Below, in pieces: positions 48,633-60,245 of a DNA stretch of 64,000 bases. The notes beneath the pieces were generated by a model. The model searched no databases, was not told where the DNA came from, and was given only the letters and a program-made list of their open reading frames with translations. The stretch is from Verrucomicrobiota bacterium (GTDB lineage Bacteria > Verrucomicrobiota > Verrucomicrobiia > Opitutales > Opitutaceae): the NCBI GenBank assembly GCA_016871775.1, contig VHCI01000003.1, forward strand, positions 9,458-73,457. Direction: 5' to 3'. The position numbers were made by a program, and so were the translations under genes. The number at the start of each line of letters is the position of its first letter. Position 1 is the first letter of the stretch.

Positions 48633-49679
48633 TCAAGCGCACAGCAGGAAGTCGCGCCCCTCCACCCAGCCGCGGGCCGCGAGGTCGGCCGCGATCAGCT
48701 CCCGCGCTCCCGGCGAGGAGACGTAGGCGAGGACGAACGCCTCGCCCGGGCGCGGCAGCGCCGAGGGGGCCCACACCGGCGGCCCGCGGCCGCCCAGCGC
48801 CGGCGTCACCTTGGCCGGATCGACGTCCACGTACCCCGCGACGCGCAGCCCATGGCTCGCGAGCACGGCGGCGCGGAGACGGGTCGGGCGCCCTGCGCCC
48901 CAGACGAGGAGCGGCCGGGCCGCGAGGTCGGGCCGGGCCTGGAGCCAGCGGGCGATCCAGCGGGCCTTCAGCCGGAAGAAGGCTTCCGGCGCGTAGCGGG
49001 CGTCCGTTCGCGAGAGCCGCCCCGGCCGGTCGTGCCAACGCAGCAGCACACGCGGCAACTTGCCGAAGGCTACGCCCGCATCCATCCACCGCAGCCATAG
49101 CTCGTAATCCTCCGGGAAATCGCCCGCGCGGTAGCCGCCGTGCCGCCCCAGCAGGTCGCGCCGGAACACCACGCTCGGATGGGCGACGGGCGCGTCGACA
49201 AAACGCCGGAGCGCCATCAGCTCCGGGGTGAGCAGGCCGTTCAGCCACGCCACGTGCCGCGCGTAACCCGCCTGCGCCGCTGCGTCGCCGGCGTGTTCCA
49301 CGAGGCAACTCACGACGCCGTGCGCCCGGCCCTCCGGGCCATCGAGCCACGCCACCTGGGCCGCGAGCCGCTCCGGCAGCGCCTCGTCGTCCGCGTCCAT
49401 CCGCGCGACCAGTTCCCCGCGGGCCACGGCGAGGCCGGCGTTGAGCGCGGCGACTAGGCCCTCACGCGGTCGCCGGAGAACCCGGAGGCGGGATTCCTCC
49501 CGGGCCAGCGGCGCGAGGAGCCCCGCCGTCGCATCGACCGACCCGTCGTCGACGACCAACAGTTCCCAATCGGGGAACTTCTGGTTCAGAATACTCGCGA
49601 CCGCCCGGCCGAGGGTGGCGGCCGCGTCCCGGGCGGGCAGGAGCACCGTGACCCGCGGGGCGGCGGCGGTCCCGTTCAG
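48633..49679 (-). CDS. GT2 glycosyltransferase, probable CTG start coupled to msrA
   Basis: PRVTVLLP, VDDGSVD, RMDADD, EDYELW. The first canonical start (GTG 49646) cuts the conserved first strand. AAGGAG lies 8 nt before CTG 49679. Confidence 0.85.
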   Translation of the reverse strand: MNGTAAAPRVTVLLPARDAAATLGRAVASILNQKFPDWELLVVDDGSVDATAGLLAPLAREESRLRVLRRPREGLVAALNAGLAVARGELVARMDADDEALPERLAAQVAWLDGPEGRAHGVVSCLVEHAGDAAAQAGYARHVAWLNGLLTPELMALRRFVDAPVAHPSVVFRRDLLGRHGGYRAGDFPEDYELWLRWMDAGVAFGKLPRVLLRWHDRPGRLSRTDARYAPEAFFRLKARWIARWLQARPDLAARPLLVWGAGRPTRLRAAVLASHGLRVAGYVDVDPAKVTPALGGRGPPVWAPSALPRPGEAFVLAYVSSPGARELIAADLAARGWVEGRDFLLCA

Positions 49680-50272
49680 GGCTGCTTCTCCTTGGTGAGC
49701 TGTTCGCGGAGCTTTTTCACCTTCGGGGCGATCACGTAGGCGCAGTAACCCGCGTTGGGGTTCCGGCGGAAATAATCCTGATGATAGGCCTCAGCCTCCC
49801 AGAACCGCTCCAGCGGCGCGATCTCGGTCGTGATCTGGTCGCGGAACGTCGCGGCGGCGCGAGCGCGGGACTTCTCCGCCGCCTCCCTCTGCGCGGCACC
49901 GGCGTAGAGTATGACCGAACGGTACTGGGGACCGATGTCGTTCCCTTGGCCGCCGACCTGCGTGGGGTTGTGCACCTGCCAGAAATAGTCCAACAGCCGC
50001 TCGAGCGAGACCACGGCCGGATCGTAGTCGATGCGGATGACCTCGGCGTGGCCGGTCTTTTTGGTCGAGATCTGCTCGTAGTTGGGATTGGGCACGTGGC
50101 CGCCGGCGTAGCCGCTGACGACGGTCTTCACCCCGGGCAGCAGTTCATAGGCGGCCTCGGTGCACCAGAAGCAACCGCCCCCGACGACCAGCGAGGCGAG
50201 TTGCGGGGCAGCGGCGGCGAGCGGGGAGGTCATCGGCAGAAGGAGGGCAGCAAGGAATAGCGGGAGGCGCAT
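49676..50272 (-). CDS. msrA: Peptide-methionine (S)-S-oxide reductase with signal peptide
   Basis: GGGCFWCTE, GHAEV, QYRSVI, AEAYHQDY, GYC. Confidence 0.95.
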   Translation of the reverse strand: MRLPLFLAALLLPMTSPLAAAAPQLASLVVGGGCFWCTEAAYELLPGVKTVVSGYAGGHVPNPNYEQISTKKTGHAEVIRIDYDPAVVSLERLLDYFWQVHNPTQVGGQGNDIGPQYRSVILYAGAAQREAAEKSRARAAATFRDQITTEIAPLERFWEAEAYHQDYFRRNPNAGYCAYVIAPKVKKLREQLTKEKQP

Positions 50273-50329: not shown

Positions 50330-51718
50330 TCAGCCGCCACCCGCGGCCGGCAAGCGCAGCCCGAAGGCGCGGAGGCGGGCGTCGAGACCGAAGCGCGTGA
50401 ACAGCGCGTCCGTCTCCGCCGCCGCGCGTCGCGCCGGGTCGAGGCCGGGCGCTTCCGCCAGCGCGCGCACGAGGTCGAGGATCACCGCCACCGACTCCTC
50501 GAGCAGTTGCGGGGTCACCTTGTCGATGGTGTCGGCCAGGTCGTGATAATGCCGCACGGCCTCGCGCGGGAGGGGCGCGTTGAGGGTCAGGGCCCGGACG
50601 CCGACCAGCTGGTAGGGCGTGTGGTCGCTGCCCAGCCAGTTGGTGTTCTCGACGCCGCTGGGCAGCCGCAGCCCGGCGGGGCGAGCGGCATTCCAGCGCT
50701 CGAGGAACGGCACCAGCGCGTCGTCGCCGAGCGCGTTCACCGCGACGGGCAAGCCGATCATATCGAGATTGAGCATCGCGACGACCGGCGTGGCGCCGAG
50801 AAGGGCGGCGGCGTGGCGGGAACCCTGTAGGCCCTGCTCCTCCCCGTTGAACCAGATGAGTTCCACCGCGTGATGGCGGGGCGCGCCGGCCAGCGCGCGG
50901 GCAAGGGCAAAGAGCTGCGCGACGCCGATGCCGTTGTCGAGAGCCCCCTGCCCGAGGTCCCAGCTGTCCAGATGCGCCCCGACGATCACCCGCGAGGAGG
51001 CGCGGCCGGGGAGCACGACGCGGAGGTTGGCAGTCGCGACCGGGACGCAGCGGGAGCGAGTCTCGACGCGCAGGCGCACCGGGATCCCGCGCGCCACGAG
51101 GCGCCCGAGCCAACGGCCCTCCTCCTGCGTGATCGAGTAGACCGGCAGTGGCAGGGGCCGGCCCGCGGGCGAGCCGGTACGCGCGAGCAGTTGGCCCCCA
51201 CCCTCGCGGTTGATGAACAGGATCGCCGCCAGCCCGCGCGCGGCCGCCGCCCCGACGTAATCCGCAGCCGGCAGCGGCGAACCGGAAGCCAGCAGGCCGA
51301 CGCGCCCGCGGAGCTCACCCGCCGGGTAATCACCGGGCCGGCCAAGGCCGATGTCCACAAGTTCCCCCGTGAGCGCCGGGTGCGCCTGAGAGAAACCCAG
51401 CGCCGCAACGCGCAGCCGGCGCACAAAGGGGGCGAGTACCTCGACCTGGTCGTCCCCGCGGATCCAACCAGGGGCGTTGAAGGGCTGGCGCTCGGGCGCG
51501 AGGCCCAGCGCGCGCAACTCCGCCTCGAGGCGGTCGAGCGCCGCCGCGTTGCCCGCACTGCCGGTGAGGCGCGGCCCGATCTCGTCGGCGAGGCGTTCCA
51601 GAAAGGCGTGAGCGGCGGCGGCCGGGGATAGCGCGGCCCCCGGCTCCGCCGCCCACGCGGCGGCGACCAGAGCGAGCGCAAGCGCAGCCCGCCGCGCGGT
51701 TTCAGGGGCGGACCGCAT
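50330..51718 (-). CDS. Exported M28 family metallopeptidase with PA domain
   Basis: GPRLTGS, GAHLDSWD, DNG, NGEEQG, NLDM, SDH, YH. Confidence 0.9.
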   Translation of the reverse strand: MRSAPETARRAALALALVAAAWAAEPGAALSPAAAAHAFLERLADEIGPRLTGSAGNAAALDRLEAELRALGLAPERQPFNAPGWIRGDDQVEVLAPFVRRLRVAALGFSQAHPALTGELVDIGLGRPGDYPAGELRGRVGLLASGSPLPAADYVGAAAARGLAAILFINREGGGQLLARTGSPAGRPLPLPVYSITQEEGRWLGRLVARGIPVRLRVETRSRCVPVATANLRVVLPGRASSRVIVGAHLDSWDLGQGALDNGIGVAQLFALARALAGAPRHHAVELIWFNGEEQGLQGSRHAAALLGATPVVAMLNLDMIGLPVAVNALGDDALVPFLERWNAARPAGLRLPSGVENTNWLGSDHTPYQLVGVRALTLNAPLPREAVRHYHDLADTIDKVTPQLLEESVAVILDLVRALAEAPGLDPARRAAAETDALFTRFGLDARLRAFGLRLPAAGGG

Positions 51719-52088
51719 CGGTGATCGTGAGCGTGTTGAAGCCGAAAACCCGGCTCAGCCGCCCGTGGGTGAGCTTGAGCCGACCCCGGTCGGAAGAGCG
51801 GAGCAGGCCGTCCAGCACGGCGACGTGCGCGACTTGGGCGTAGCGCGGGTCGTGGGTCAGGTGGAACCTTCGGATGTGGTGCGGGCCGGCGTGCTCGAAG
51901 GTGGCCCGGTCCGCCGAGCGGTAGAGGCCGCTGCGGGCCGGCCCCGCGCGGCCGATGACGCCGGAGCCGGGACCGCTCAGGCTGACGAGCAGGTGCAGGT
52001 CGTGCCGGGGCGCCTCCGCGGCCCGCCCAGCGAGGACGGCCGCGAACACGAGGGCGCCGGCAAAAAAGGATCGTGCGTTCCAGGTCAT
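51702..52088 (-). pseudogene. Probable remnant of an exported Asp-box (BNR) beta-propeller gene
   Basis: Signal peptide and two Asp-box-like motifs (GLYRSADRATF, GLLRSSDRG). At 128 aa it is too short for a propeller, and its stop overlaps the next gene's start. Confidence 0.45.
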
Positions 52089-52105
52089 CGCACCAAGTTG
52101 CGGGT

Positions 52106-52627
52106 ATGCGCTCCCTCCCCTGCCTGCTGTTCACGCTCGCCCTCGCCGCCACCGTGCCCGCCGGCGCCGAAACCCCCGAGGTCCGCCTCGCCGCGCGCGG
52201 CCTGAAGCTCCCCCCAGTGAGCGCCCCGATCGCAAACTACGTGCCCGCGGTCCGCTCGGGCAACCTTGTCTTCCTCGCGGGCCACATCCCGCGCGACGCC
52301 GCTGGAAAGGTGATCACCGGCAAGGTGGGCCAGAGCGCCACGCCCGAGCAGGCCAACGCCGCCGCGCAGGCCACCGCCCTCGCGCTGCTGGCCACGCTCA
52401 AGCAGGAGATCGGTGAGCTCGCCCGTGTGAAGCGCGTCGTCCGCGTCGGCGGATTCGTCAACGCCGTGGAAACCTTCACCGCGCAGCCCCAGGTGATGAA
52501 CGGCTGCTCTGACCTCCTCGTCGCCGTGTTCGGCGAACGCGGCAAGCACGCCCGCGCAGCCCTCGGGGTGGCCTCCCTCCCCGCCGGCGCGGTGGTCGAG
52601 ATCGAGATGGTGGTCGAGGTGGACTGA
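52106..52627 (+). CDS. RidA/YjgF family protein with Sec signal peptide
   Basis: ANYVPAVRSGNLVFLAG, KHARAALG (catalytic Arg position), VEIEMVVE; hydrophobic N-terminal leader ending AGA. Confidence 0.88.
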   Translation: MRSLPCLLFTLALAATVPAGAETPEVRLAARGLKLPPVSAPIANYVPAVRSGNLVFLAGHIPRDAAGKVITGKVGQSATPEQANAAAQATALALLATLKQEIGELARVKRVVRVGGFVNAVETFTAQPQVMNGCSDLLVAVFGERGKHARAALGVASLPAGAVVEIEMVVEVD

Positions 52628-52641
52628 GGCGGGCATCGGCT

Positions 52642-53904
52642 TCAGGCCTCCCGGCGCAGGAACTCGCCAACCGCGGCGACCAGCGCGTCCACCTGCGCGG
52701 GGGAATTGCAGAGGTGGGTCGAGACACGCAGCGCGTTCAGGTTGTCCTCGGTGACAGGCCGCGTGCGGATGCCCCTCTCGCGCAGGAGCAGGCCGAAGAG
52801 GCGGTCGTGCGGGATCCGGGGCGTGCGAAACGCCACTAGCGCCGCGGAGAGCTCGCCCGGTTCCGGGGAAAGAATCTCGACTCCCGGCAGGGCCGCAAGC
52901 CCCGCCCGCGCCTGGGCGGCCAGCTGGCGTGCTCGCGCCGCGATGCGCTCCCGGCCGATCCGCTCCTGCAGCCGCATCGCCTCGGCCAATCCGAGCGCGG
53001 TGGCGACATTCCGGGTGCCATACTCGTAACGCACCGCCCCCGCGCTCAGCGCGAAGCGGCCGTTCGCGTCGAGTCCCCCGGAGTAGGCGCCCACCAGCGG
53101 CGGCGCCAGCTGCTCCTGCCGCGCGCGGCGCACGCAGAGGACGCCGGTCTCGAGCGGGCCACCAATCCACTTGTGCCCGCAGACCGCGAGGGAGTCGCAG
53201 CCGAGGGCGGCGAAGTCGACCGGCACCATCCCCGCCGACTGCGCCGCATCAAGGTGGAACCAAATCCCGCGGGTCCGGCAGAGGTCCGCGACCGCGCGCG
53301 CCGGCAACGTGATCCCGGTGGGCGCGGTGATGTGCGACAGCTGGATGACGCGCGTTCGCGGGCCGCAGAGCGCCGTGATGCGGTCGAGGTTCGCCGCGGC
53401 GGAACGGGGGTCGGGGTCAAACGTGCGCACGACGACGCCGCGCACGCGCGCCGCCTGTAGCCAGGGAAACGAGCCGCCGGGATGGGCGTGGGTCTCAAAG
53501 ATGACCTCGTCGCCCGCACGCAGAGGCAGGCCAGCCGCAACGGTGGCGTTGGCCTCGGTAGCGTTGCGGACGAAGGCGACCTCGGCTGGGTCGGCGCCGA
53601 GGAAGCGAGCCGCGTCGGCCCGCGCGCCCGTGAACTCCGCGTGACCGTGCTCGGCCTTGACCTGCAGGCGGCGGGTAACCTCCGCGACCCGCTCCAGGAC
53701 GGGCGTCGGGGTCGAGCCGAGGCCGCCGGTGTTGAAGTAACTGAAGCCCACCTCCAGCGGGTAGAGCGCGCGCACCGCTTCCCAGAACGGCTCGGGCCGC
53801 GCCGCGGCGAACTCCGGGAGGGCCACGTCGGCGCCGCGGGCGAGGCCGAGACCGGCCGCGCCGAGGGCGGCGTGGCGGAGGAAGGAGCGGCGGGGCAGAC
53901 TCAT
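52642..53904 (-). CDS. Tat-exported class V PLP aminotransferase-fold enzyme (cysteine desulfurase/isopenicillin-N-epimerase-like)
   Basis: PRRSFL signal; RNATEA, HITAPTG, DAAQSAG, GHKW, RVSTH. Confidence 0.87.
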   Translation of the reverse strand: MSLPRRSFLRHAALGAAGLGLARGADVALPEFAAARPEPFWEAVRALYPLEVGFSYFNTGGLGSTPTPVLERVAEVTRRLQVKAEHGHAEFTGARADAARFLGADPAEVAFVRNATEANATVAAGLPLRAGDEVIFETHAHPGGSFPWLQAARVRGVVVRTFDPDPRSAAANLDRITALCGPRTRVIQLSHITAPTGITLPARAVADLCRTRGIWFHLDAAQSAGMVPVDFAALGCDSLAVCGHKWIGGPLETGVLCVRRARQEQLAPPLVGAYSGGLDANGRFALSAGAVRYEYGTRNVATALGLAEAMRLQERIGRERIAARARQLAAQARAGLAALPGVEILSPEPGELSAALVAFRTPRIPHDRLFGLLLRERGIRTRPVTEDNLNALRVSTHLCNSPAQVDALVAAVGEFLRREA

Positions 53905-54746
53905 ACGCGGAGGAATTCGAGCCGGTGGTCGAGCAGCAGGTCGCGGCCGGCAGGCAAGGTCACGGGAGCGTCGGCGTGAAACGCGAAGGCGGCGAGCGGG
54001 TTTTTCGCCCGCACAAACCACGGGATCGGCCCAGTGCGGCTCTCGAACCGGACCTTCGTCCGCCGCAGCGAGCCATCGTGTTGGCACGACCACTCGATCC
54101 ACGGCGCCGGCACCCCGTGCACCTCCGCCTCCCCCCGGCGCCCGCCGGGACCGCTGACTCCGAGGGCGGCGTCCCCGTGCTCATCCAGAAGCTCACGCGC
54201 ACCGCGAAACTGCAGCCCAGAGTAGTGGGAGCCGACCAGGCCTCCGCCCGCGTGATAATTCGAGAGGACGAGCGGGCGCCCCGCCGCGTTCCACAGGCGG
54301 CTGGTCCAGTCCAGCACCCAGCCCTCCGGCAGGACGCCCGGCACTAGCACGCGCTCCTCCCGCAGGAGGACCTCGCCCGCGGGCGACCGCCATTCGACGG
54401 CCTCCTCCAGCCGCGCCGGTCCGCGCGCCACCCAACCGGCGTGGACCTGCCGTCCCTGGTCCCCGCGCCAGCGGTAGCCCTCCCCCACCCGAAAGGAGGG
54501 TCCGCCCCAGAAATTAATGTCGTCCACTGCGGTGAGCGTGAGGCTGAGCCCGTGGTGCCAAGGGTGGTCGTTGGGCCGGAAGTTGGTCAGGAGGTCGCCG
54601 TCCGCGGAATAGAGCGGATGGAAGTAGGGCCGCGGCGCCTCCTCCGGGGGCGTGGCCGGGGCGAACACGTAGGTCCAGAGCGGGCGGCCGTCGAGGCGCG
54701 CCTCCACGCGATCCGCTGCCTCCGACAGAACCAGGCCGGCGTTCAC
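53901..54746 (-). CDS. PmoA/DUF6807-like protein
   Basis: RPYFHPL, DHPWHHGL, NFWGG, YSGLQFRG. Coupled at both ends (GTGA/ATGA). Confidence 0.72.
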   Translation of the reverse strand: MNAGLVLSEAADRVEARLDGRPLWTYVFAPATPPEEAPRPYFHPLYSADGDLLTNFRPNDHPWHHGLSLTLTAVDDINFWGGPSFRVGEGYRWRGDQGRQVHAGWVARGPARLEEAVEWRSPAGEVLLREERVLVPGVLPEGWVLDWTSRLWNAAGRPLVLSNYHAGGGLVGSHYSGLQFRGARELLDEHGDAALGVSGPGGRRGEAEVHGVPAPWIEWSCQHDGSLRRTKVRFESRTGPIPWFVRAKNPLAAFAFHADAPVTLPAGRDLLLDHRLEFLRV

Positions 54747-55153
54747 GGCACGGCGCCCTCCAGCGCGAAGGGCCCACCCGCGAACGCCGCGTGTTCGCCA
54801 CCCGGCAGGCGGACCCGGACCGGCGTCACGGCGGGGGCGTCGCCCTCGAGCCGGAGGCGGCCGGCCTCGACGCGCCACGCCACCCGCACGAGCCCCCGCG
54901 GCGTGCGCACGGCATGGAAGTCGCCTTTCGCCGGCCCTCGCCCCACCAGCGCGCCGTTGCGCGACAGCGCGATGCGGCTGCCGGCGGACACGAGGATCCG
55001 GGCCGGCAAGTCTCCGGGCCGCGCGGATTCTAGGGTCCGGCGGGAGAGGCGCACCTGGTAATGCGACGTTCTGGCGTACTCGGGTGCCGGGGCCGCGCGG
55101 GAACCCTCGGCGGACCAGATCCACTGGGCCTCGGCAGTGAACGGCAGGGACAT
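54743..55153 (-). pseudogene. Alpha-L-rhamnosidase (GH78-type) with catalytic core deleted in frame
   Basis: N-terminal AQWIW...VSAGSRIALSRNGALVGRGPAKGD is joined directly to a C-terminal VRTPRGLVRVAW domain; 136 aa in total. Confidence 0.68.
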
Positions 55154-55259
55154 CGGCAGGGGAAAAGGGAGGTACAGGACCGCACGTGGCCAGCTTAGGC
55201 GGTGGCGGAAACAAGCTCGCGCCTCCCTGAAACTCAACCCCGGTTTTCATGGCTTGTCC

Positions 55260-56100
55260 GCCGTGCCCGCCGCGTCCCCCCGGGTCGTCGTTTGCGCCGC
55301 CATCTGGCCGCTGGCCGGCCACCCCCGCGGGCGCCCCTGGAGCCTCGGAAGGCGGTTGCAGGTGATGCGCGCCGCCGGGTTCGAAGGCTTGTGCGGCTAC
55401 GCCGACCCCGGAGTTGCGCGCCGAAGCCGACCGCCTCGGCCTCGCGGTGATGAGCGGGTTCGACGCCCCCACGATCGCCACGGGCTGCAACGACTGCGCG
55501 GGCGGGCGGACCTTGGCGTCCGTTTCATCGACATCCAACTGCTCGACCGCGACACCCCCCTCGCGCCGGCGACCAAGGCCGTCATCCGGCTGGCCCGGGA
55601 GGCGGAGCGTCGTGGCGTGGCGGTGCATTTTGAGACCCATCGGGACACCACGACGGAAACCTTGGAGAAGTTTTCCGCCCTCGGCCGCGCGTTCCAGCGG
55701 GCCACTGGCCAATTGCTCCCGGTGACCCGGGGCCACTCGCATTTCGCGGTCAGCAAGCACGTGCAGGCGCCGGACTACGCCGCCCGGCTGCTGGCGTGGC
55801 CGGTGCTGTGATCCAGGTCTCGCGGATGTTCCTCCTCCGCCCATGCAACAGCCAGCACCGCCAGATCCCAGTGACCCACGGGCGCGGCCGGGTAACGCCA
55901 GAAGCTGGCGATTACTTCGGGTTCGTTCGGGACCTCTTGTGCTGCTGACGGGGGGAAGACGGACCACGGGGAACTCTGGACCCGCCCCGAACTGGGGATG
56001 CGCCACGGCTCCCAACTGAGCACGGACCAGCCGGCGTGGCCCAAAGCGATCCGCGCGCGACGGGAGATCCTCGCGGCATGGCACGCGACGGGCCCCTCCT
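55260..56100 (+). pseudogene. Xylose-isomerase-like TIM barrel pseudogene
   Basis: AAGFEG, VHFETHRD, HSHFAVSKH, HRQIPVT and PELG are spread over several frames with a stop at 55811. Boundaries are approximate. Confidence 0.65.
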
Positions 56101-56162
56101 CCTGCCGAACGCCTCCGGAATCGCTCTTGACGCTGGAAACGTACGAATTCAGCCTGCTCCCT

Positions 56163-56175
56163 CTGAAACTTTCAG
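56163..56175. promoter_or_regulatory. LacI-type operator-like palindrome CTGAAACTTTCAG
   Basis: Perfect inverted repeat 20 nt upstream of the LacI pseudogene start. Confidence 0.45.
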
Positions 56176-56195
56176 GAAACCCCCGACCCCGAAGT

Positions 56196-57128
56196 ATGCT
56201 GATCACGGAGATCCCGGCGAGAGCGCGGGTCTCGCCCGCGACGGTCTCGCGGGCGATCAACCGGCCGCAGATTTTCGCGGCGGACAGCTTGGCGCGGATC
56301 CGCTTGATGATGGGGGCGAACAGCCATGTGCCGTCCCCACTGAGCCGTCGGCGCGGGCCCGAGCCCCGGTCGGCGGAGTTGAGGCGGATTGGCGTCTGGT
56401 TTGTGGGCGCGCGCCCCCAACAACCTGAGCCTGAATTGGTTCCACGACCATTTACTGCACGCGCAGGCCAACGCCCCCCGCCAGCGCATCGACCTGCGGG
56501 TGTTTTGCTCGAATTCCCCAGAGGGGCTGCCGGCCGGGTGGAGCGGCGAGAAGCTGGAGGGTCTTATTTTGCAGGGGGTGGAGCCGGCGAACGAGGGGAA
56601 AGGCTGGCTGGCGGCAGACCATCTGGCAGAGCAGGGCCATCGGACGGTTGCGATGGTCAGCGCGGACCCGCAATTCAGCGCGGCGGCGCGGCGGGTGGTG
56701 GCCGTCCGGCAGCGGTCGCGGGAGCTGGGTCTGAAGGTGCATTCCATCCTGGGCCGGCCCAACCCTGCGGTGAGTTACCTAGAACTGATGCCCGCGCACG
56801 AGGAGAGCGAGACCCTGGTCGGCACCCTGCTGGCGGCGACCCCGCGGGACACCTGACTCTACCTGCCGGCGGATCATTTCTGCGGCGCCTTCTTCCGCGC
56901 TCTGCGGGCAGCAGGGCAGCGGCCAGGGGACAATTACAGGGCGATGATCGGGAACTACAACCTGGTCGTCTACCACAACCTCGACCATTCCCCGGCGGCA
57001 ATCGACATCAACCTTCCCACCCTTGTGAGAAAAGTTGTCGACCATCTGGTCTGGAAGATCGAGCATCCTCGGAGCTCGGCCGGATCGGCATCACTGTTAC
57101 CCCAACCCTCCGTCCCTCACCGCACTGA
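56196..57128 (+). pseudogene. LacI family regulator pseudogene
   Basis: HTH ITEIPARARVSPATVSRAIN; frameshift ~56415; in-frame TGA at ~56854; further shifts; ends with the LacI-like ITVTPTL. Confidence 0.75.
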
Positions 57129-57185: not shown

Positions 57186-60100
57186 ATGAACAAACCAAGC
57201 CCACTCGCCAGGCGCAGCCTGACGACGACGCTGGCGCTCCTCAGCGCCGCTCCCCTCGCCTTCGGGCAGGCGGGCGACGCCGCGGCCCTCCGCCGGCTCC
57301 AGGAAGAAAACGCCGCGCTGCGCAAGCAGCTCGCTGAAGCCCAGGGCCGGACCACCGCCCCTGCTGCCGCCGCCCGCCCGGCCGCCGCCGCGGCTGCGCC
57401 CGCCGTCGGTCTCCGGACCGACGAGGGCGTGACCGCCCTCAGCGCCTTCGAGGTCAAGTCCGAGCGCGACTACGGCTACCTCAAGACGAACGCGGCCACG
57501 GCCACGAAGATCAATATGGAGATCCAGAATATCCCCCTGCACCTGCAGGTGATCTCCCGGGAGTTCCTAGACGACACCAACGCGCGCTCCCTGACCGACC
57601 TGTTCCGCTACTCCGCCTCCGCCTCGGGTGACACCCGCTTCGCGATGCGCGTGCCGGCCAACTCCGCCACCCCGCAGGGCACCTTCACGATGCGCGGCTT
57701 CGTGGTGAACAGCCTGATGCGCAACGGCGTCTTCCGGTACACCTCCTACAACCTCGAGACCATCGACCGCGTCGAGGTCGTCAAGGGCCCCGCCGCCGTC
57801 TTTTTCGGCCAGGGCTACCCCGGCGGCGTCATCAACTACATCACCAAGCAGCCGGACTTCTCGGGCAATAAGACCGACGTCGACTACTACGTGAACAGCA
57901 ACTCGGGCCACCGGGTGATGATCGACCAGAACCAAACCCTCGGGAAGAAGGCCGCTCTCCGCATCATCGGCGGCTGGGAGGACACTCAGGGCGAGCGCCG
58001 GTTCGAGTACCGGCGCGCCAACACCGTCACCCCGTCGCTCTCGCTCATCCCGTTCGACAGCGGCAGGGTGAAGATCACCGCCGAGGCCGAGTTCCTGCGC
58101 GAGAAGTTCAGCTGGCACGACTATGACTGGATTTGGAGTGACTTCGCGGGCTGGAAGGAAGCCGCCACCACCGGCCGGTACAACTCCTCCACCGCCACCC
58201 TCGCCAACACGATCGCCGCCAACGCCGGCAACGGCCTGACCGCGAACGTGATCCAGAACACCCGTACCCCGACTCTGGCCTACGCGACCTACATCAATAA
58301 CAAGCGTATCGCCACCAACAACTGGTCGCTGCCAGCCTACACTCGCGTCGAGCGCGGCGCCTACGTCACCAACGCCGCCGGCCAGTGGGTGAAGGACGAG
58401 GCATTCAACTACACCAGCCGTGGCGCGCACTTCCGCAACACGATCGACAACCTCTCGGTCACGGTGGACCTCACGCCCTTCAGCTGGCTCGACGTTCGCT
58501 ACAACTTCCTCAACGAGAAGTCCGAGAATTACTCCGTCGGCCAGGGCGGCGCCCTGACCACGCCCTACGCCAACGGCATCAACTGGAACGCGGCCACGGG
58601 CAACCTCTCCGGTTACTACCGCTACGGCCAGACGCACAACTTCGACGCGGTCGCCAAGTTCGACCTCTTCGGCGTGAAGAACAGACTGCTCGGCGGCTTC
58701 CAGCGCATCAACCCCTACCAGCAGTTCCTCGGCGGCCAGGCCTTCGGCGACGTGCAGTGGGCCTTTCTTCCGGGCGCCCGCAACACCGAGTCTAACCCGG
58801 ACTACCGCGGTACCAACGTCGCCCTTTACAACCACGGCGGCGTCCCGGTCAACCAAGTCATCCGCGACCGCACTGGTGCCATTAAGCCCGTCCGTCAGAT
58901 CTACTCGAACTTCGACCCGGGCTTCGAGATCTACCCGGACGTCAACGTCTACCACCAGGACGACCGCAACGCCCTCGACGGCTACAAGTCCAAGACCGAG
59001 TCCCTCTACCTCAACTGGCAGGCGACCGCGTTCAAGGACCGTCTGACCCTGCTCGCGGGTTACCGCGAGGAACGCAATTGGCAGCGCGGCCAGTACCAGC
59101 CGAACAACTATCCGTGGTTCATCTACTTCCCGAATATGCACCTGAACCCGACCCTCTATCCTGAGAACGTCTGGGGCCACTCGATCAGCTACCAGCGCGG
59201 CCTGTACACCGACACAAAGGGCAATTCCTGGATGGGCGGCCTCTCGTTCGCGGTCACCAAGGAGCTGAGCATCTACGCCTCGAACTCGAAGACGTTCAAG
59301 TTCAACAACGGCCGCATCTCTGGCATCTTCGCGGGTGACGAGGCCCTCTGGTTCGAGGAAGCCCGCCGCACCGGCTTCGGCGGCACCCCCGGCCAGTCGT
59401 TCCGCTACCTCGGTCAGACGGTCACTTCGCTGCAGCAGTTCCGCGACATCCTCACCGGCCGCGGAGTGTTCGAGCTGCTCAAGAACGAGCAGGGCATGAA
59501 CTGGGAAATCGGCGCCAAGCTGTCCCAGCTCAACGGCCAGCTCGTCGGCACGCTGTCGTTCTTCCGCGGCGAGCGTGAGAACCAGATGCTCGACGACGGC
59601 GCGAGGCAGTCGAACCTCGAGGAGCCGCTGAACTTCAGCACCGACCTCTTCGCGGTCGGCTCCCCGTACCGCAGCCAGCGCCTGCTCCGCTGGCGCACGA
59701 CCGACCTCCTCAACCGCATCGAGGGTGGCGAGGCCGAGCTGATCTGGACCCCCCGCCGCAACTTCCAAGCCGTGGTCAACGGCTCCTGGCTTTGGACCGC
59801 CAAGACGGTGTACGACAAGACCCGCGCCGCCCCCGGCACGGCGGCGTACAACGCCCTCGCGCCCGCCGGCAAGGTCGCGTCCGACATCTACTACGACGCG
59901 CGCATCGAGAACGTTCCCGAGTACCGCCTGAACGTGTTCGGCAAGTACACGTTCACCGACGGCATCGGCGGGGTCGGCCGCGGCCTCAACGTCGGCCTCG
60001 GCATGCGTTACTCGTCCGAGACGGTCGTCTCCCGCTCCGTCGACTGGAACCCCCTCGCGGGCGGTTACCAGGCCGGCGACTACGTGGTGTATGACCTCAC

Positions 60101-60245
60101 GGTCGCGTACCCTTGGAACATTCTGGGTTACCGGATCCACACCAACTTCGGTCTCTACAACGTGACCGACGAGAAGTACTCTGAGGGCTCCTTCGCGATG
60201 TCTCCGGCCCGGAACTGGATTTTCCGGAACACGCTCAAGTTCTGA
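57186..60245 (+). CDS. TonB-dependent receptor with N-terminal coiled coil
   Basis: Signal peptide, LRRLQEENAALRKQLAE, ATATKINMEIQNIP, DRVEVVKGPAAVFFGQGYPGG, C-terminal F; 1019 aa, intact. Confidence 0.94.
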   Translation: MNKPSPLARRSLTTTLALLSAAPLAFGQAGDAAALRRLQEENAALRKQLAEAQGRTTAPAAAARPAAAAAAPAVGLRTDEGVTALSAFEVKSERDYGYLKTNAATATKINMEIQNIPLHLQVISREFLDDTNARSLTDLFRYSASASGDTRFAMRVPANSATPQGTFTMRGFVVNSLMRNGVFRYTSYNLETIDRVEVVKGPAAVFFGQGYPGGVINYITKQPDFSGNKTDVDYYVNSNSGHRVMIDQNQTLGKKAALRIIGGWEDTQGERRFEYRRANTVTPSLSLIPFDSGRVKITAEAEFLREKFSWHDYDWIWSDFAGWKEAATTGRYNSSTATLANTIAANAGNGLTANVIQNTRTPTLAYATYINNKRIATNNWSLPAYTRVERGAYVTNAAGQWVKDEAFNYTSRGAHFRNTIDNLSVTVDLTPFSWLDVRYNFLNEKSENYSVGQGGALTTPYANGINWNAATGNLSGYYRYGQTHNFDAVAKFDLFGVKNRLLGGFQRINPYQQFLGGQAFGDVQWAFLPGARNTESNPDYRGTNVALYNHGGVPVNQVIRDRTGAIKPVRQIYSNFDPGFEIYPDVNVYHQDDRNALDGYKSKTESLYLNWQATAFKDRLTLLAGYREERNWQRGQYQPNNYPWFIYFPNMHLNPTLYPENVWGHSISYQRGLYTDTKGNSWMGGLSFAVTKELSIYASNSKTFKFNNGRISGIFAGDEALWFEEARRTGFGGTPGQSFRYLGQTVTSLQQFRDILTGRGVFELLKNEQGMNWEIGAKLSQLNGQLVGTLSFFRGERENQMLDDGARQSNLEEPLNFSTDLFAVGSPYRSQRLLRWRTTDLLNRIEGGEAELIWTPRRNFQAVVNGSWLWTAKTVYDKTRAAPGTAAYNALAPAGKVASDIYYDARIENVPEYRLNVFGKYTFTDGIGGVGRGLNVGLGMRYSSETVVSRSVDWNPLAGGYQAGDYVVYDLTVAYPWNILGYRIHTNFGLYNVTDEKYSEGSFAMSPARNWIFRNTLKF

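What the first reader, a model, noticed from the sequence alone, without database searches (positions are those of the whole stretch)
52106..53904. Exported RidA facing a Tat-exported PLP enzyme: possible periplasmic enamine/imine chemistry
Seen: RidA with a Sec-type leader and its catalytic Arg retained, 14 bp tail-to-tail from a class V PLP enzyme with a twin-Arg signal. Established: RidA proteins deaminate reactive enamines such as 2-aminoacrylate released by PLP enzymes, normally in the cytoplasm. Inference: a periplasmic PLP lyase/epimerase with its own detoxifier or product-releasing partner.
Basis: partly seen in the sequence, partly recalled or inferred. Interest (0 to 1): 0.6.

Follow-up and report, generated by a model that had tools for sequence, protein, structure and literature searches.

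The report
Exported Rid1 facing exported PLP lyase
Two neighbouring genes encode a vitamin-B6 enzyme and an imine clean-up enzyme that both carry export signals and stay side by side across the family Opitutaceae, which suggests that a deamination step described for bacteria inside the cell also runs in the periplasm; the substrate is unknown and nothing has been tested at the bench.

Summary
Observation confirmed, with one correction: the small gene is Rid1 subfamily, not RidA proper, though it keeps Arg150/Glu165. The PLP enzyme has a twin-Arg leader, lacks the desulfurase persulfide Cys and shares active-site motifs with the cystine lyase C-DES more than with PvdN. Both leaders are conserved in orthologues; this genome's three other Rid1 copies have none. 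In 251 Opitutaceae genomes, 95 of 96 with the Rid orthologue have the enzyme, and 91 place them tail-to-tail. The pair lies in a TonB-receptor/GH78/lyase-fold/M28 cluster, persists alone in five loci, and stays under purifying selection here while the sugar genes decay. Related exported Rid1 genes sit beside other Tat enzymes (second class V, PtaA-like, DgaE-like, DAO). Best reading (0.55): a periplasmic beta-eliminating lyase whose enamine/imine product Rid1 hydrolyses. Against: the pairing has one main origin, Rid is absent from 12 of 107 enzyme-bearing genomes, it lies antisense inside the gene run, and distant enzyme homologues have no Rid nearby. Periplasmic PLP enzymes (PvdN, PtaA) and an algal periplasmic RidA are known; I found no paper on a bacterial exported Rid-PLP pair. 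The scan noted this theme before on other DNA.

The parts
52106..52627 (+). Rid1-subfamily imine/enamine deaminase with Sec-type leader (173 aa)
   Evidence: PF14588 E 2.7e-22; nearest PDB sequences 3d01, PA0814, ACIAD3089; dN/dS 0.05-0.09 versus close relatives
52106..52168 (+). Predicted Sec/SPI signal peptide, residues 1-21, AGA|E site
   Evidence: Sequence; equivalent leaders in 43 of 45 orthologue loci, none in cytoplasmic paralogues
52553..52555 (+). Codon of catalytic Arg150 (RidA Arg105 equivalent; Glu165 lies 15 residues on, as Glu120 does in RidA)
   Evidence: R150, E165, Y45, G59 invariant in alignment A1
52628..52641 (.). 14-bp gap between the two convergent stop codons; no terminator-like site found
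52642..53904 (-). Tat-signal class V (fold type I) PLP enzyme without persulfide Cys, C-DES/PvdN-like (420 aa)
   Evidence: PF00266 E 2e-53; structure model ties SufS, C-DES, PvdN at Z 45.4-45.7; motifs; dN/dS 0.10-0.12
53887..53892 (-). Twin-arginine codons (R5-R6) of the RRSFL Tat motif
   Evidence: motif in 119 of 122 homologues
53170..53172 (-). Codon of the Schiff-base Lys245 (GHKW)
   Evidence: invariant in 122 of 122
53901..54746 (-). DUF6807 (PF14100) gene, no leader, overlaps the PLP start by 4 bp; intact
50330..51718 (-). Exported M28 peptidase, last gene of the cluster; intact
   Evidence: PF04389; dN/dS about 0.10
51702..52088 (-). Remnant fusion of BNR-propeller gene start and lyase-fold gene end; about 2.5 kb deleted at 51781/51782; starts 17 bp from the Rid start
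54743..55237 (-). GH78 rhamnosidase-like remnant; about 2.0 kb deleted at 54913/54914
   Evidence: dN/dS 0.35-0.50
55263..56102 (+). Xylose-isomerase-like TIM-barrel pseudogene (3 stops)
   Evidence: dN/dS 0.43-0.68
56127..57114 (+). LacI-family regulator pseudogene (frameshift and a stop)
   Evidence: dN/dS 0.30-0.45
57186..60245 (+). TonB-dependent receptor of the cluster; intact
   Evidence: PF07715

Best explanation
The PLP enzyme is folded with its cofactor, exported by Tat, and acts in the periplasm as an alpha,beta-eliminating lyase of the C-DES type on a beta-substituted alpha-amino acid. It frees the leaving group and releases an enamine (aminoacrylate-type) that tautomerises to an imine. 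The Sec-exported Rid1 hydrolyses that imine to a 2-oxo acid plus ammonia, which speeds the step and protects the PLP enzyme, since cytoplasmic Rid proteins cannot reach it. The Rid is an accessory: hydrolysis also occurs in water, so it can be lost. The substrate most likely comes from the cluster's own route (TonB receptor, lyase-fold/BNR pair, M28 peptidase): an O- or S-substituted Ser/Thr/Cys, possibly glycosylated, or an amino-sugar acid. Shown here: gene identities, motifs, leaders, linkage, selection. Inferred: export, the reaction type, the coupling. Guess: the substrate.
For: C-DES motifs shared: YFNTGGLG/YFNFGGQG, HPG, SH, D.AQSAG, GHKW..GP, VG.(Y)S, R382/R393 matching the two C-terminal Arg of C-DES; PvdN lacks several of these; all near-invariant in 122 homologues. 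No persulfide Cys loop (position 381 varies C/A/T/S). Cys-less relatives C-DES and YcfC are C-S lyases that release aminoacrylate (PMC12494993). Rid1 members PA0814 and ACIAD3089 deaminate 2-aminoacrylate made by a Cys desulfhydrase and oxidase-made imines (PMC5619798). Tat export of PLP-loaded enzymes is established for PvdN and PtaA (PMC6206403). 95 of 96 Rid-bearing genomes have the enzyme, 91 convergently adjacent; five loci keep the pair with none of GH78/DUF6807/BNR/lyase-fold nearby; in this genome PLP, Rid, M28, DUF6807 keep dN/dS 0.05-0.18 while LacI, TIM, GH78, BNR decay; a separate lineage shrank to nearly the same set (L073, L079, L089). Exported Rid1 genes also sit next to a different Tat class V subfamily (L127, L233), a Tat PtaA-like class I/II enzyme (L126-128, L333), Tat DgaE/SelA-like enzymes (9 of 53 non-Opitutales leader-Rid loci) and a Tat DAO (L184).
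Against: The fold match does not separate SufS, C-DES and PvdN (Z 45.7/45.6/45.4, about 26% identity), and Cys-less class V enzymes also do decarboxylation, epimerisation, retro-Claisen and aldol chemistry. The Opitutaceae pairing looks like one ancestral event, so genome counts are not independent. 12 of 107 enzyme-bearing genomes lack the Rid orthologue, and other cluster genes are kept as often in wide loci. No Rid lies within the fetched flanks of about 80 more distant enzyme homologues, many on short contigs. Most leader-bearing Rid1 genes in other phyla have no PLP enzyme within 5 kb. The Rid gene is antisense inside a co-directional run, only 13-64 bp from the next start, a layout that elsewhere goes with mutually exclusive expression (PMC11034616). 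tatC was not found in this assembly, although its flank maps to a contig end.
Confidence: 0.55

Rival explanations
1. Both proteins are periplasmic and linked, but the enzyme does non-eliminating chemistry (PvdN-like oxidative decarboxylation, CefD-like epimerisation, transamination or retro-aldol cleavage of a sugar-derived amino acid). Rid1 guards it against enamines from side reactions with Ser/Cys, or clears an imine by-product.
For: PvdN is the only Tat-exported class V enzyme characterised and gives the lowest rmsd (1.9 A over 367 residues). An exported Rid1 also sits directly behind a PtaA-like transaminase, which releases no enamine in its normal cycle. Rid genes cluster with PLP enzymes that are victims as well as producers of 2-aminoacrylate (PMC4433059).
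Against: Active-site motifs follow C-DES, not PvdN; PvdN model score 124.5 against a cut-off of 650; no siderophore genes in the loci examined.
Confidence: 0.25
2. The adjacency is inherited gene order. An exported Rid1 was inserted once, antisense, into the gene run and is held there by overlapping promoters. It serves other periplasmic imine sources (flavin amino-acid oxidases) or binds small acids, and may even be expressed when the cluster is off.
For: One main origin in the tree; 13-64 bp between the divergent Rid and BNR starts; clean absence in 10 loci where PLP runs straight into BNR; leader-bearing Rid1 is widespread without PLP neighbours; the known periplasmic Rid works with an L-amino acid oxidase (PMC5053998, PMC10805672).
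Against: The Rid orthologue is almost never present without the enzyme (1 of 96, and that one faces another Tat class V enzyme); the pair survives moves into unrelated contexts (L095, L096, L102, L112, L125, L129); repeated pairing with other Tat PLP enzymes.
Confidence: 0.15
3. The leaders do not export the proteins (uncleaved anchor, vestigial Tat motif), and the pair is an ordinary cytoplasmic Rid-PLP cluster.
For: No tatC in this assembly; the two genes upstream of the enzyme (GH78, DUF6807) have no leader; export is untested.
Against: Leaders vary in sequence but keep their pattern across 43 of 45 and 119 of 122 homologues; three tatA genes are present and tatC is in 33 of 36 genus relatives including the five closest, with its flank at a contig end here; the genome has three leaderless Rid1 paralogues.
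Confidence: 0.05

Closest known systems
Rid1 subfamily (PA0814, ACIAD3089, Atu1372/PDB 3d01; PF14588)
   Same: Sequence family, catalytic Arg/Glu/Tyr, expected imine and 2-aminoacrylate deaminase activity
   Different: Carries a Sec-type leader; characterised members are leaderless and assayed as cytoplasmic proteins
C-DES cystine C-S lyase of Synechocystis (PDB 1elq) and YcfC
   Same: Class V fold without persulfide Cys; shared active-site motifs; Z 45.6, rmsd 2.1 A
   Different: Only about 27% identity; Tat leader; catabolic glycan/peptide cluster instead of Fe-S or thioguanine synthesis; substrate unknown
PvdN and PtaA of fluorescent Pseudomonas
   Same: Tat-exported, PLP-loaded periplasmic enzymes; PvdN is class V, Z 45.4, rmsd 1.9 A
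   Different: Below the PvdN model cut-off (124.5 vs 650); different active-site motifs; no pyoverdine genes; no Rid partner described for PvdN
Chlamydomonas periplasmic LAO1 + LAO2/RIDA; Gluconacetobacter lao-cccA-ridA
   Same: An extracytoplasmic imine producer encoded beside, and working with, a Rid protein (PMC10805672, PMC5053998)
   Different: The producer there is a flavin oxidase, not a PLP enzyme; the Gluconacetobacter RidA is not reported as exported
Cytoplasmic Rid-PLP gene clusters (Niehaus 2015, PMC4433059)
   Same: Rid1/RidA genes cluster with desulfurases, desulfhydrases, beta-lyases and aminotransferases
   Different: That survey does not mention signal peptides or the periplasm (0 hits); here both partners have export signals and are convergent
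Noncontiguous operons (PMC11034616)
   Same: One antisense gene inside a co-directional run
   Different: Read-through transcription is not shown here

Membership tests
RidA subfamily (sensu stricto) | TIGR00004 score above curated cut-off | tested here: not met
   44.1 bits vs 106.25
RidA subfamily (sensu stricto) | Arg105-equivalent catalytic residue | tested here: met
   R150 invariant, E165 15 residues on
Rid1 subfamily | PF14588 above cut-off and nearest relatives are Rid1 members | tested here: met
   79.6 vs 35 bits; best PDB hits Atu1372 E 2e-34, PA0814 E 4e-24, ACIAD3089 E 5e-18, far above RidA proteins; PA0814 and ACIAD3089 are Rid1 in PMC5619798
Rid1 subfamily | CDD profile YjgF_YER057c_UK114_like_1 | not testable with these tools
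   CDD is not among the libraries
Rid1 subfamily | Trimer with imine deaminase activity | not testable with these tools
   needs assay
Class V (fold type I) PLP enzymes | PF00266, Schiff-base Lys, ring-binding Asp, stacking His | tested here: met
   182 bits; K245, D219, H141 invariant in 122
SufS/IscS cysteine desulfurases | Persulfide-forming Cys loop (RxGHHC in SufS) | tested here: not met
   Loop is deleted in the profile alignment; position 381 is C/A/T/S, Thr here; TIGR01979 152 vs 475 bits
C-DES-type C-S lyases | No persulfide Cys; YFNxGG, HPG, GHKW, two C-terminal Arg | tested here: met
   pairwise alignment with 1elq
C-DES-type C-S lyases | Closest structural and sequence relative is C-DES | tested here: inconclusive
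   tied with SufS and PvdN within 0.3 Z; about 27% identity
C-DES-type C-S lyases | Beta-elimination of cystine or S-substituted cysteine | not testable with these tools
   needs assay
PvdN | NF051467 above cut-off | tested here: not met
   124.5 vs 650 bits
PvdN | Lies in a pyoverdine gene cluster | tested here: not met
   neighbours are TBDR, LacI, GH78, DUF6807, BNR, lyase-fold, M28
Tat substrates | Conserved S/T-R-R-x-F-L motif followed by an h-region | tested here: met
   RRSFL; 96 RR plus 23 RK of 122 homologues; aligns with PvdN's own signal
Tat substrates | Host encodes TatA and TatC | tested here: inconclusive
   three tatA; tatC not in the 96%-complete assembly but its flank maps to the end of contig C1, and 33 of 36 genus relatives have it
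Sec/SPI substrates | n-, h- and c-regions with A-x-A site | tested here: met
   by inspection and hydropathy only; no SignalP available
Noncontiguous operon | Antisense gene inside a co-directional gene run | tested here: met
   GH78>DUF6807>PLP> <Rid BNR>lyase-fold>M28>; 13-64 bp between Rid and BNR starts; direct PLP>BNR where Rid is absent
Noncontiguous operon | One transcript reading across the antisense gene | not testable with these tools

The most novel reading that the evidence does not exclude
The cluster is an undescribed periplasmic route for glyco-amino acids: a TonB receptor, a new lyase-fold/BNR pair and an M28 peptidase deliver an O- or S-glycosylated Ser/Thr/Cys; the Tat PLP enzyme removes the sugar by enzymatic beta-elimination; a dedicated exported Rid1 turns the aminoacrylate into pyruvate and ammonia; leaderless GH78, DUF6807 and TIM-barrel proteins finish the sugar in the cytoplasm. 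That would be both a new way to deglycosylate amino acids and the first bacterial periplasmic metabolite-damage-control enzyme.
Probability: 0.2. Interest if true: 0.78.

Novelty: new variant of a known kind. Interest (0 to 1): 0.5.

Why it matters
Rid1-3 proteins are active in vitro but had no assigned physiological role in the papers read (PMC5619798). A Rid1 that tracks one specific enzyme in 95 of 96 genomes gives a directly testable partner, and places enamine/imine control in the bacterial periplasm, where I found no description of it. It also points to a reaction class for a large uncharacterised family of Tat-exported, Cys-less class V enzymes that databases mislabel as cysteine desulfurases, and to an unstudied catabolic cluster in about 40% of sampled Opitutaceae, with cultured carriers (Horticoccus sp. 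23ND18S-11, Pelagicoccus spp.).

Tried and rejected
RidA proper: rejected by TIGR00004 score and PDB neighbours. Cysteine desulfurase: rejected, no persulfide Cys. PvdN orthologue: rejected by score and context. A two-gene stand-alone unit: rejected, the pair usually lies in an 11-gene cluster. Deletions next to the pair as assembly artefacts: unlikely, since the remnants and two further genes show stops and raised dN/dS. Extension of the orthologous pair to a second family: I first read G566 that way, but its enzyme belongs to the other Tat class V subfamily (28% to the window enzyme, 60% to L127); the orthologue was found only in the window's family among 301 phylum genomes. Complex prediction of enzyme dimer with Rid gave no verdict (score 0.00) and is no evidence either way. 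Promoter/terminator scan found nothing above chance. Alignment A3 was too diverse for the locus scan. Substrate from neighbours: the 617-aa protein has a polysaccharide-lyase-type fold but only weak matches (Foldseek E 1e-6, Z about 10), DUF6807 gave no useful look-alike, and GxGYxYP has no known activity. The C-DES and PvdN structure papers were not held. Literature searches for Rid plus signal peptide/periplasm found no bacterial exported Rid-PLP pair; the library lacks most subscription journals. The Fisher test overstates, as genomes are kin. The Rid tree is a quick tree only.

Full report
Observation. The window comes from an Opitutaceae genome (names of homologues). 52106-52627(+) encodes a 173-aa Rid protein with a 21-residue leader ending AGA|E and the motif HAR(150)A. 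52642-53904(-) encodes a 420-aa class V PLP enzyme that begins MSLPRRSFL. The stops are 14 bp apart.

The Rid protein. It scores 79.6 bits on PF14588 but 44 bits on TIGR00004 (cut-off 106). Its nearest solved relatives are Atu1372, PA0814 and ACIAD3089; the last two are the Rid1 representatives of PMC5619798, where both deaminate 2-aminoacrylate made by a cysteine desulfhydrase and imines made by an amino-acid oxidase. So it is Rid1, not RidA. Y45, G59, R150 and E165 are invariant in the alignment. The genome has three other Rid1 copies, all starting at the domain with no leader. Orthologues keep a hydrophobic leader of variable sequence in 43 of 45 loci. Leader-bearing Rid1 is not confined to this family: it is common in Bacteroidota, Rhodothermota, Balneolota and Acidobacteriota.

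The PLP enzyme. K245, D219, Q222, H141 and R393 are invariant in 122 homologues, and 119 have R[RK]xF[LIVM] at the N-terminus, the other three being truncated. The persulfide loop of SufS is absent. The model (pLDDT 91.5) matches SufS, C-DES and PvdN equally (Z 45.7, 45.6, 45.4; rmsd 2.5, 2.1, 1.9 A). At motif level it follows C-DES: YFNTGGLG against YFNFGGQG, HPG, D.AQSAG, GHKW..GP, VG..S and both C-terminal arginines, where PvdN differs at several. C-DES and YcfC are Cys-less C-S lyases that release aminoacrylate (PMC12494993). PvdN and PtaA show that PLP enzymes are exported folded by Tat (PMC6206403). tatC is missing from this assembly, but tatA is present, the five closest relatives have tatC, and its flank maps to the very end of contig C1, so this is probably an assembly gap.

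Linkage. Among 251 family genomes, 107 have the enzyme orthologue and 96 the Rid orthologue; 95 have both, and 91 have them convergent and adjacent. The one Rid-only genome places its Rid tail-to-tail with a different Tat class V enzyme. Twelve genomes have the enzyme without the Rid. These genomes are kin and the pairing looks ancestral in the family, so the counts show retention, not many origins. The usual setting is a cluster: TonB receptor, LacI, TIM barrel on one strand; GH78, DUF6807, PLP enzyme, [Rid reversed], BNR propeller, a 617-aa protein, M28 peptidase on the other. The 617-aa protein has a polysaccharide-lyase-type toroid plus sandwich fold with weak matches. Receptor, enzyme, Rid, BNR, lyase-fold protein and M28 have leaders; GH78, DUF6807 and the TIM barrel do not.

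Is the pair special within the cluster? Three results say yes. First, five loci keep the pair with none of GH78, DUF6807, BNR or the lyase-fold gene within about 9 kb, and a sixth keeps M28-Rid-PLP. Second, in this genome 2.5-kb and 2.0-kb deletions have removed BNR/lyase-fold and GH78, and LacI and the TIM barrel carry stops; their dN/dS rose to 0.22-0.68 while PLP (0.10-0.12), Rid (0.05-0.09), M28 (0.09-0.10) and DUF6807 (0.12-0.18) stayed low. Another lineage shrank to TIM-DUF6807-PLP-Rid-M28. Third, related exported Rid1 genes sit beside unrelated Tat-signal enzymes: a second class V subfamily (L127, L233), a PtaA-like class I/II enzyme overlapping the Rid start (L126-128, L333), DgaE/SelA-like enzymes in 9 of 53 leader-Rid loci outside Opitutales, several of them close kin, and a DAO. 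Against: other cluster genes are kept about as often in my wide loci, which were enriched on purpose for Rid-less cases; about 80 more distant enzyme homologues have no Rid in the flanks fetched and sit instead with sodium symporters, heparinase-like, URO-D/corrinoid, aldolase-PfkB, GH38 and DegT genes; most leader-Rid1 genes elsewhere have no PLP neighbour.

The Rid gene is the only antisense gene in the run, with 13-64 bp (17 here) between its start and the BNR start, and where it is absent the enzyme gene runs straight into BNR. Its promoter must lie inside BNR, and the downstream genes are probably reached by read-through. This resembles a noncontiguous operon, where the antisense gene is often expressed in opposition (PMC11034616). 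It weakens the assumption of simple co-expression and offers a structural reason for stable linkage.

Mechanism. Most likely (0.55) the enzyme performs periplasmic beta-elimination on a beta-substituted amino acid and the Rid1 hydrolyses the released enamine/imine; the Rid is helpful, not essential, which fits its repeated loss. The retained M28 peptidase suggests the substrate is freed from a peptide, and the glycan genes suggest it is sugar-linked or sugar-derived; this last step is inference from context only. Rivals: non-eliminating chemistry with Rid as guard (0.25), inherited gene order with Rid serving other imine sources (0.15), no export (0.05).

Comparison and novelty. It works like the cytoplasmic Rid-PLP clusters of PMC4433059 (which mentions no signal peptides) moved to the periplasm. 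Each half has a precedent: PvdN/PtaA for the enzyme, and the Chlamydomonas periplasmic LAO1-RIDA complex for an exported Rid (PMC10805672, PMC5053998). I found no paper on a bacterial exported Rid paired with an exported PLP enzyme, in a library that lacks most subscription journals. Membership: Rid1 yes; RidA, SufS/IscS and PvdN no; C-DES-like by motifs, membership unproven. Earlier notes of this scan report the same pair in other genomes and the same theme in Bacteroidota and Acidobacteriota; these are unchecked AI notes, and I used them only for one literature lead and as a cross-check. Verdict: a real, conserved, testable variant of a known kind; interest 0.5.

Noticed in passing
window 51702-52088, 54743-57114: The cluster is decaying in this genome: 2.5-kb deletion at 51781/2 fuses the BNR start to the lyase-fold gene end, 2.0-kb deletion at 54913/4 guts GH78, and TIM barrel and LacI are pseudogenes, while the TonB receptor is intact (dN/dS 0.15).
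   Followed up: yes
window 52089-52105: Only 17 bp separate the divergent Rid and BNR start codons (13-64 bp in relatives); the Rid is a lone antisense gene inside a co-directional run, like a noncontiguous operon.
   Followed up: partly
L090:11895-14799; repeated in L099, L104, L105, L111, L130: An exported six-Asp-box BNR protein and an unannotated 617-aa protein with a polysaccharide-lyase-type fold travel as a pair, in up to three or four paralogous copies per locus.
   Followed up: partly
L120 (G280), also G247, G264, G210: Genus g39 carries two tandem copies of the PLP enzyme before the Rid gene; some g39 genomes have one copy and no Rid.
   Followed up: no
L126:8110-9754, L127:8219-11163, L128, L333: Pelagicoccus has a second exported Rid1 overlapping the end of a Tat-signal PtaA-like class I/II aminotransferase; in L127 it also faces a different Tat class V enzyme.
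   Followed up: partly
L159:5001-8051, L168, L171-173, L165, L174, L216: Bacteroidota loci with exported Rid1, a Tat-signal DgaE/SelA-like PLP enzyme, an amidohydrolase and in some a second Tat-signal RidA-type protein.
   Followed up: partly
L134, L133, L265, L271, L272, L274, L291: Distant relatives of the enzyme sit between a sodium:solute symporter and a heparinase-like gene, with URO-D/corrinoid, aldolase-PfkB fusion, Gfo oxidoreductase and GH38 genes: possibly catabolism of methylated or amino sugars.
   Followed up: partly
L107, L115, L129: In marine genera the pair follows a PhyH dioxygenase, DUF455 ferritin-like, creatininase-like, aldo-keto reductase and Gfo oxidoreductase run.
   Followed up: no
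G000 contig C1 end (109524-109775): tatC is absent from the assembly; the sequence flanking tatC in relatives ends exactly at this contig end, so it is probably an assembly gap.
   Followed up: yes
L236/L238 (G000:C21:14830-15495): A 444-codon open frame with two weak Rid-like (PF01042) domains; no canonical RidA was found in this genome.
   Followed up: no
window 53179-53181 (-): The window enzyme has Cys242 where 121 of 122 homologues have Ser, just before the GHKW motif.
   Followed up: no
window 49676-50272 (-): MsrA gene carries an apparent N-terminal signal peptide and follows the cluster in several genus relatives.
   Followed up: no
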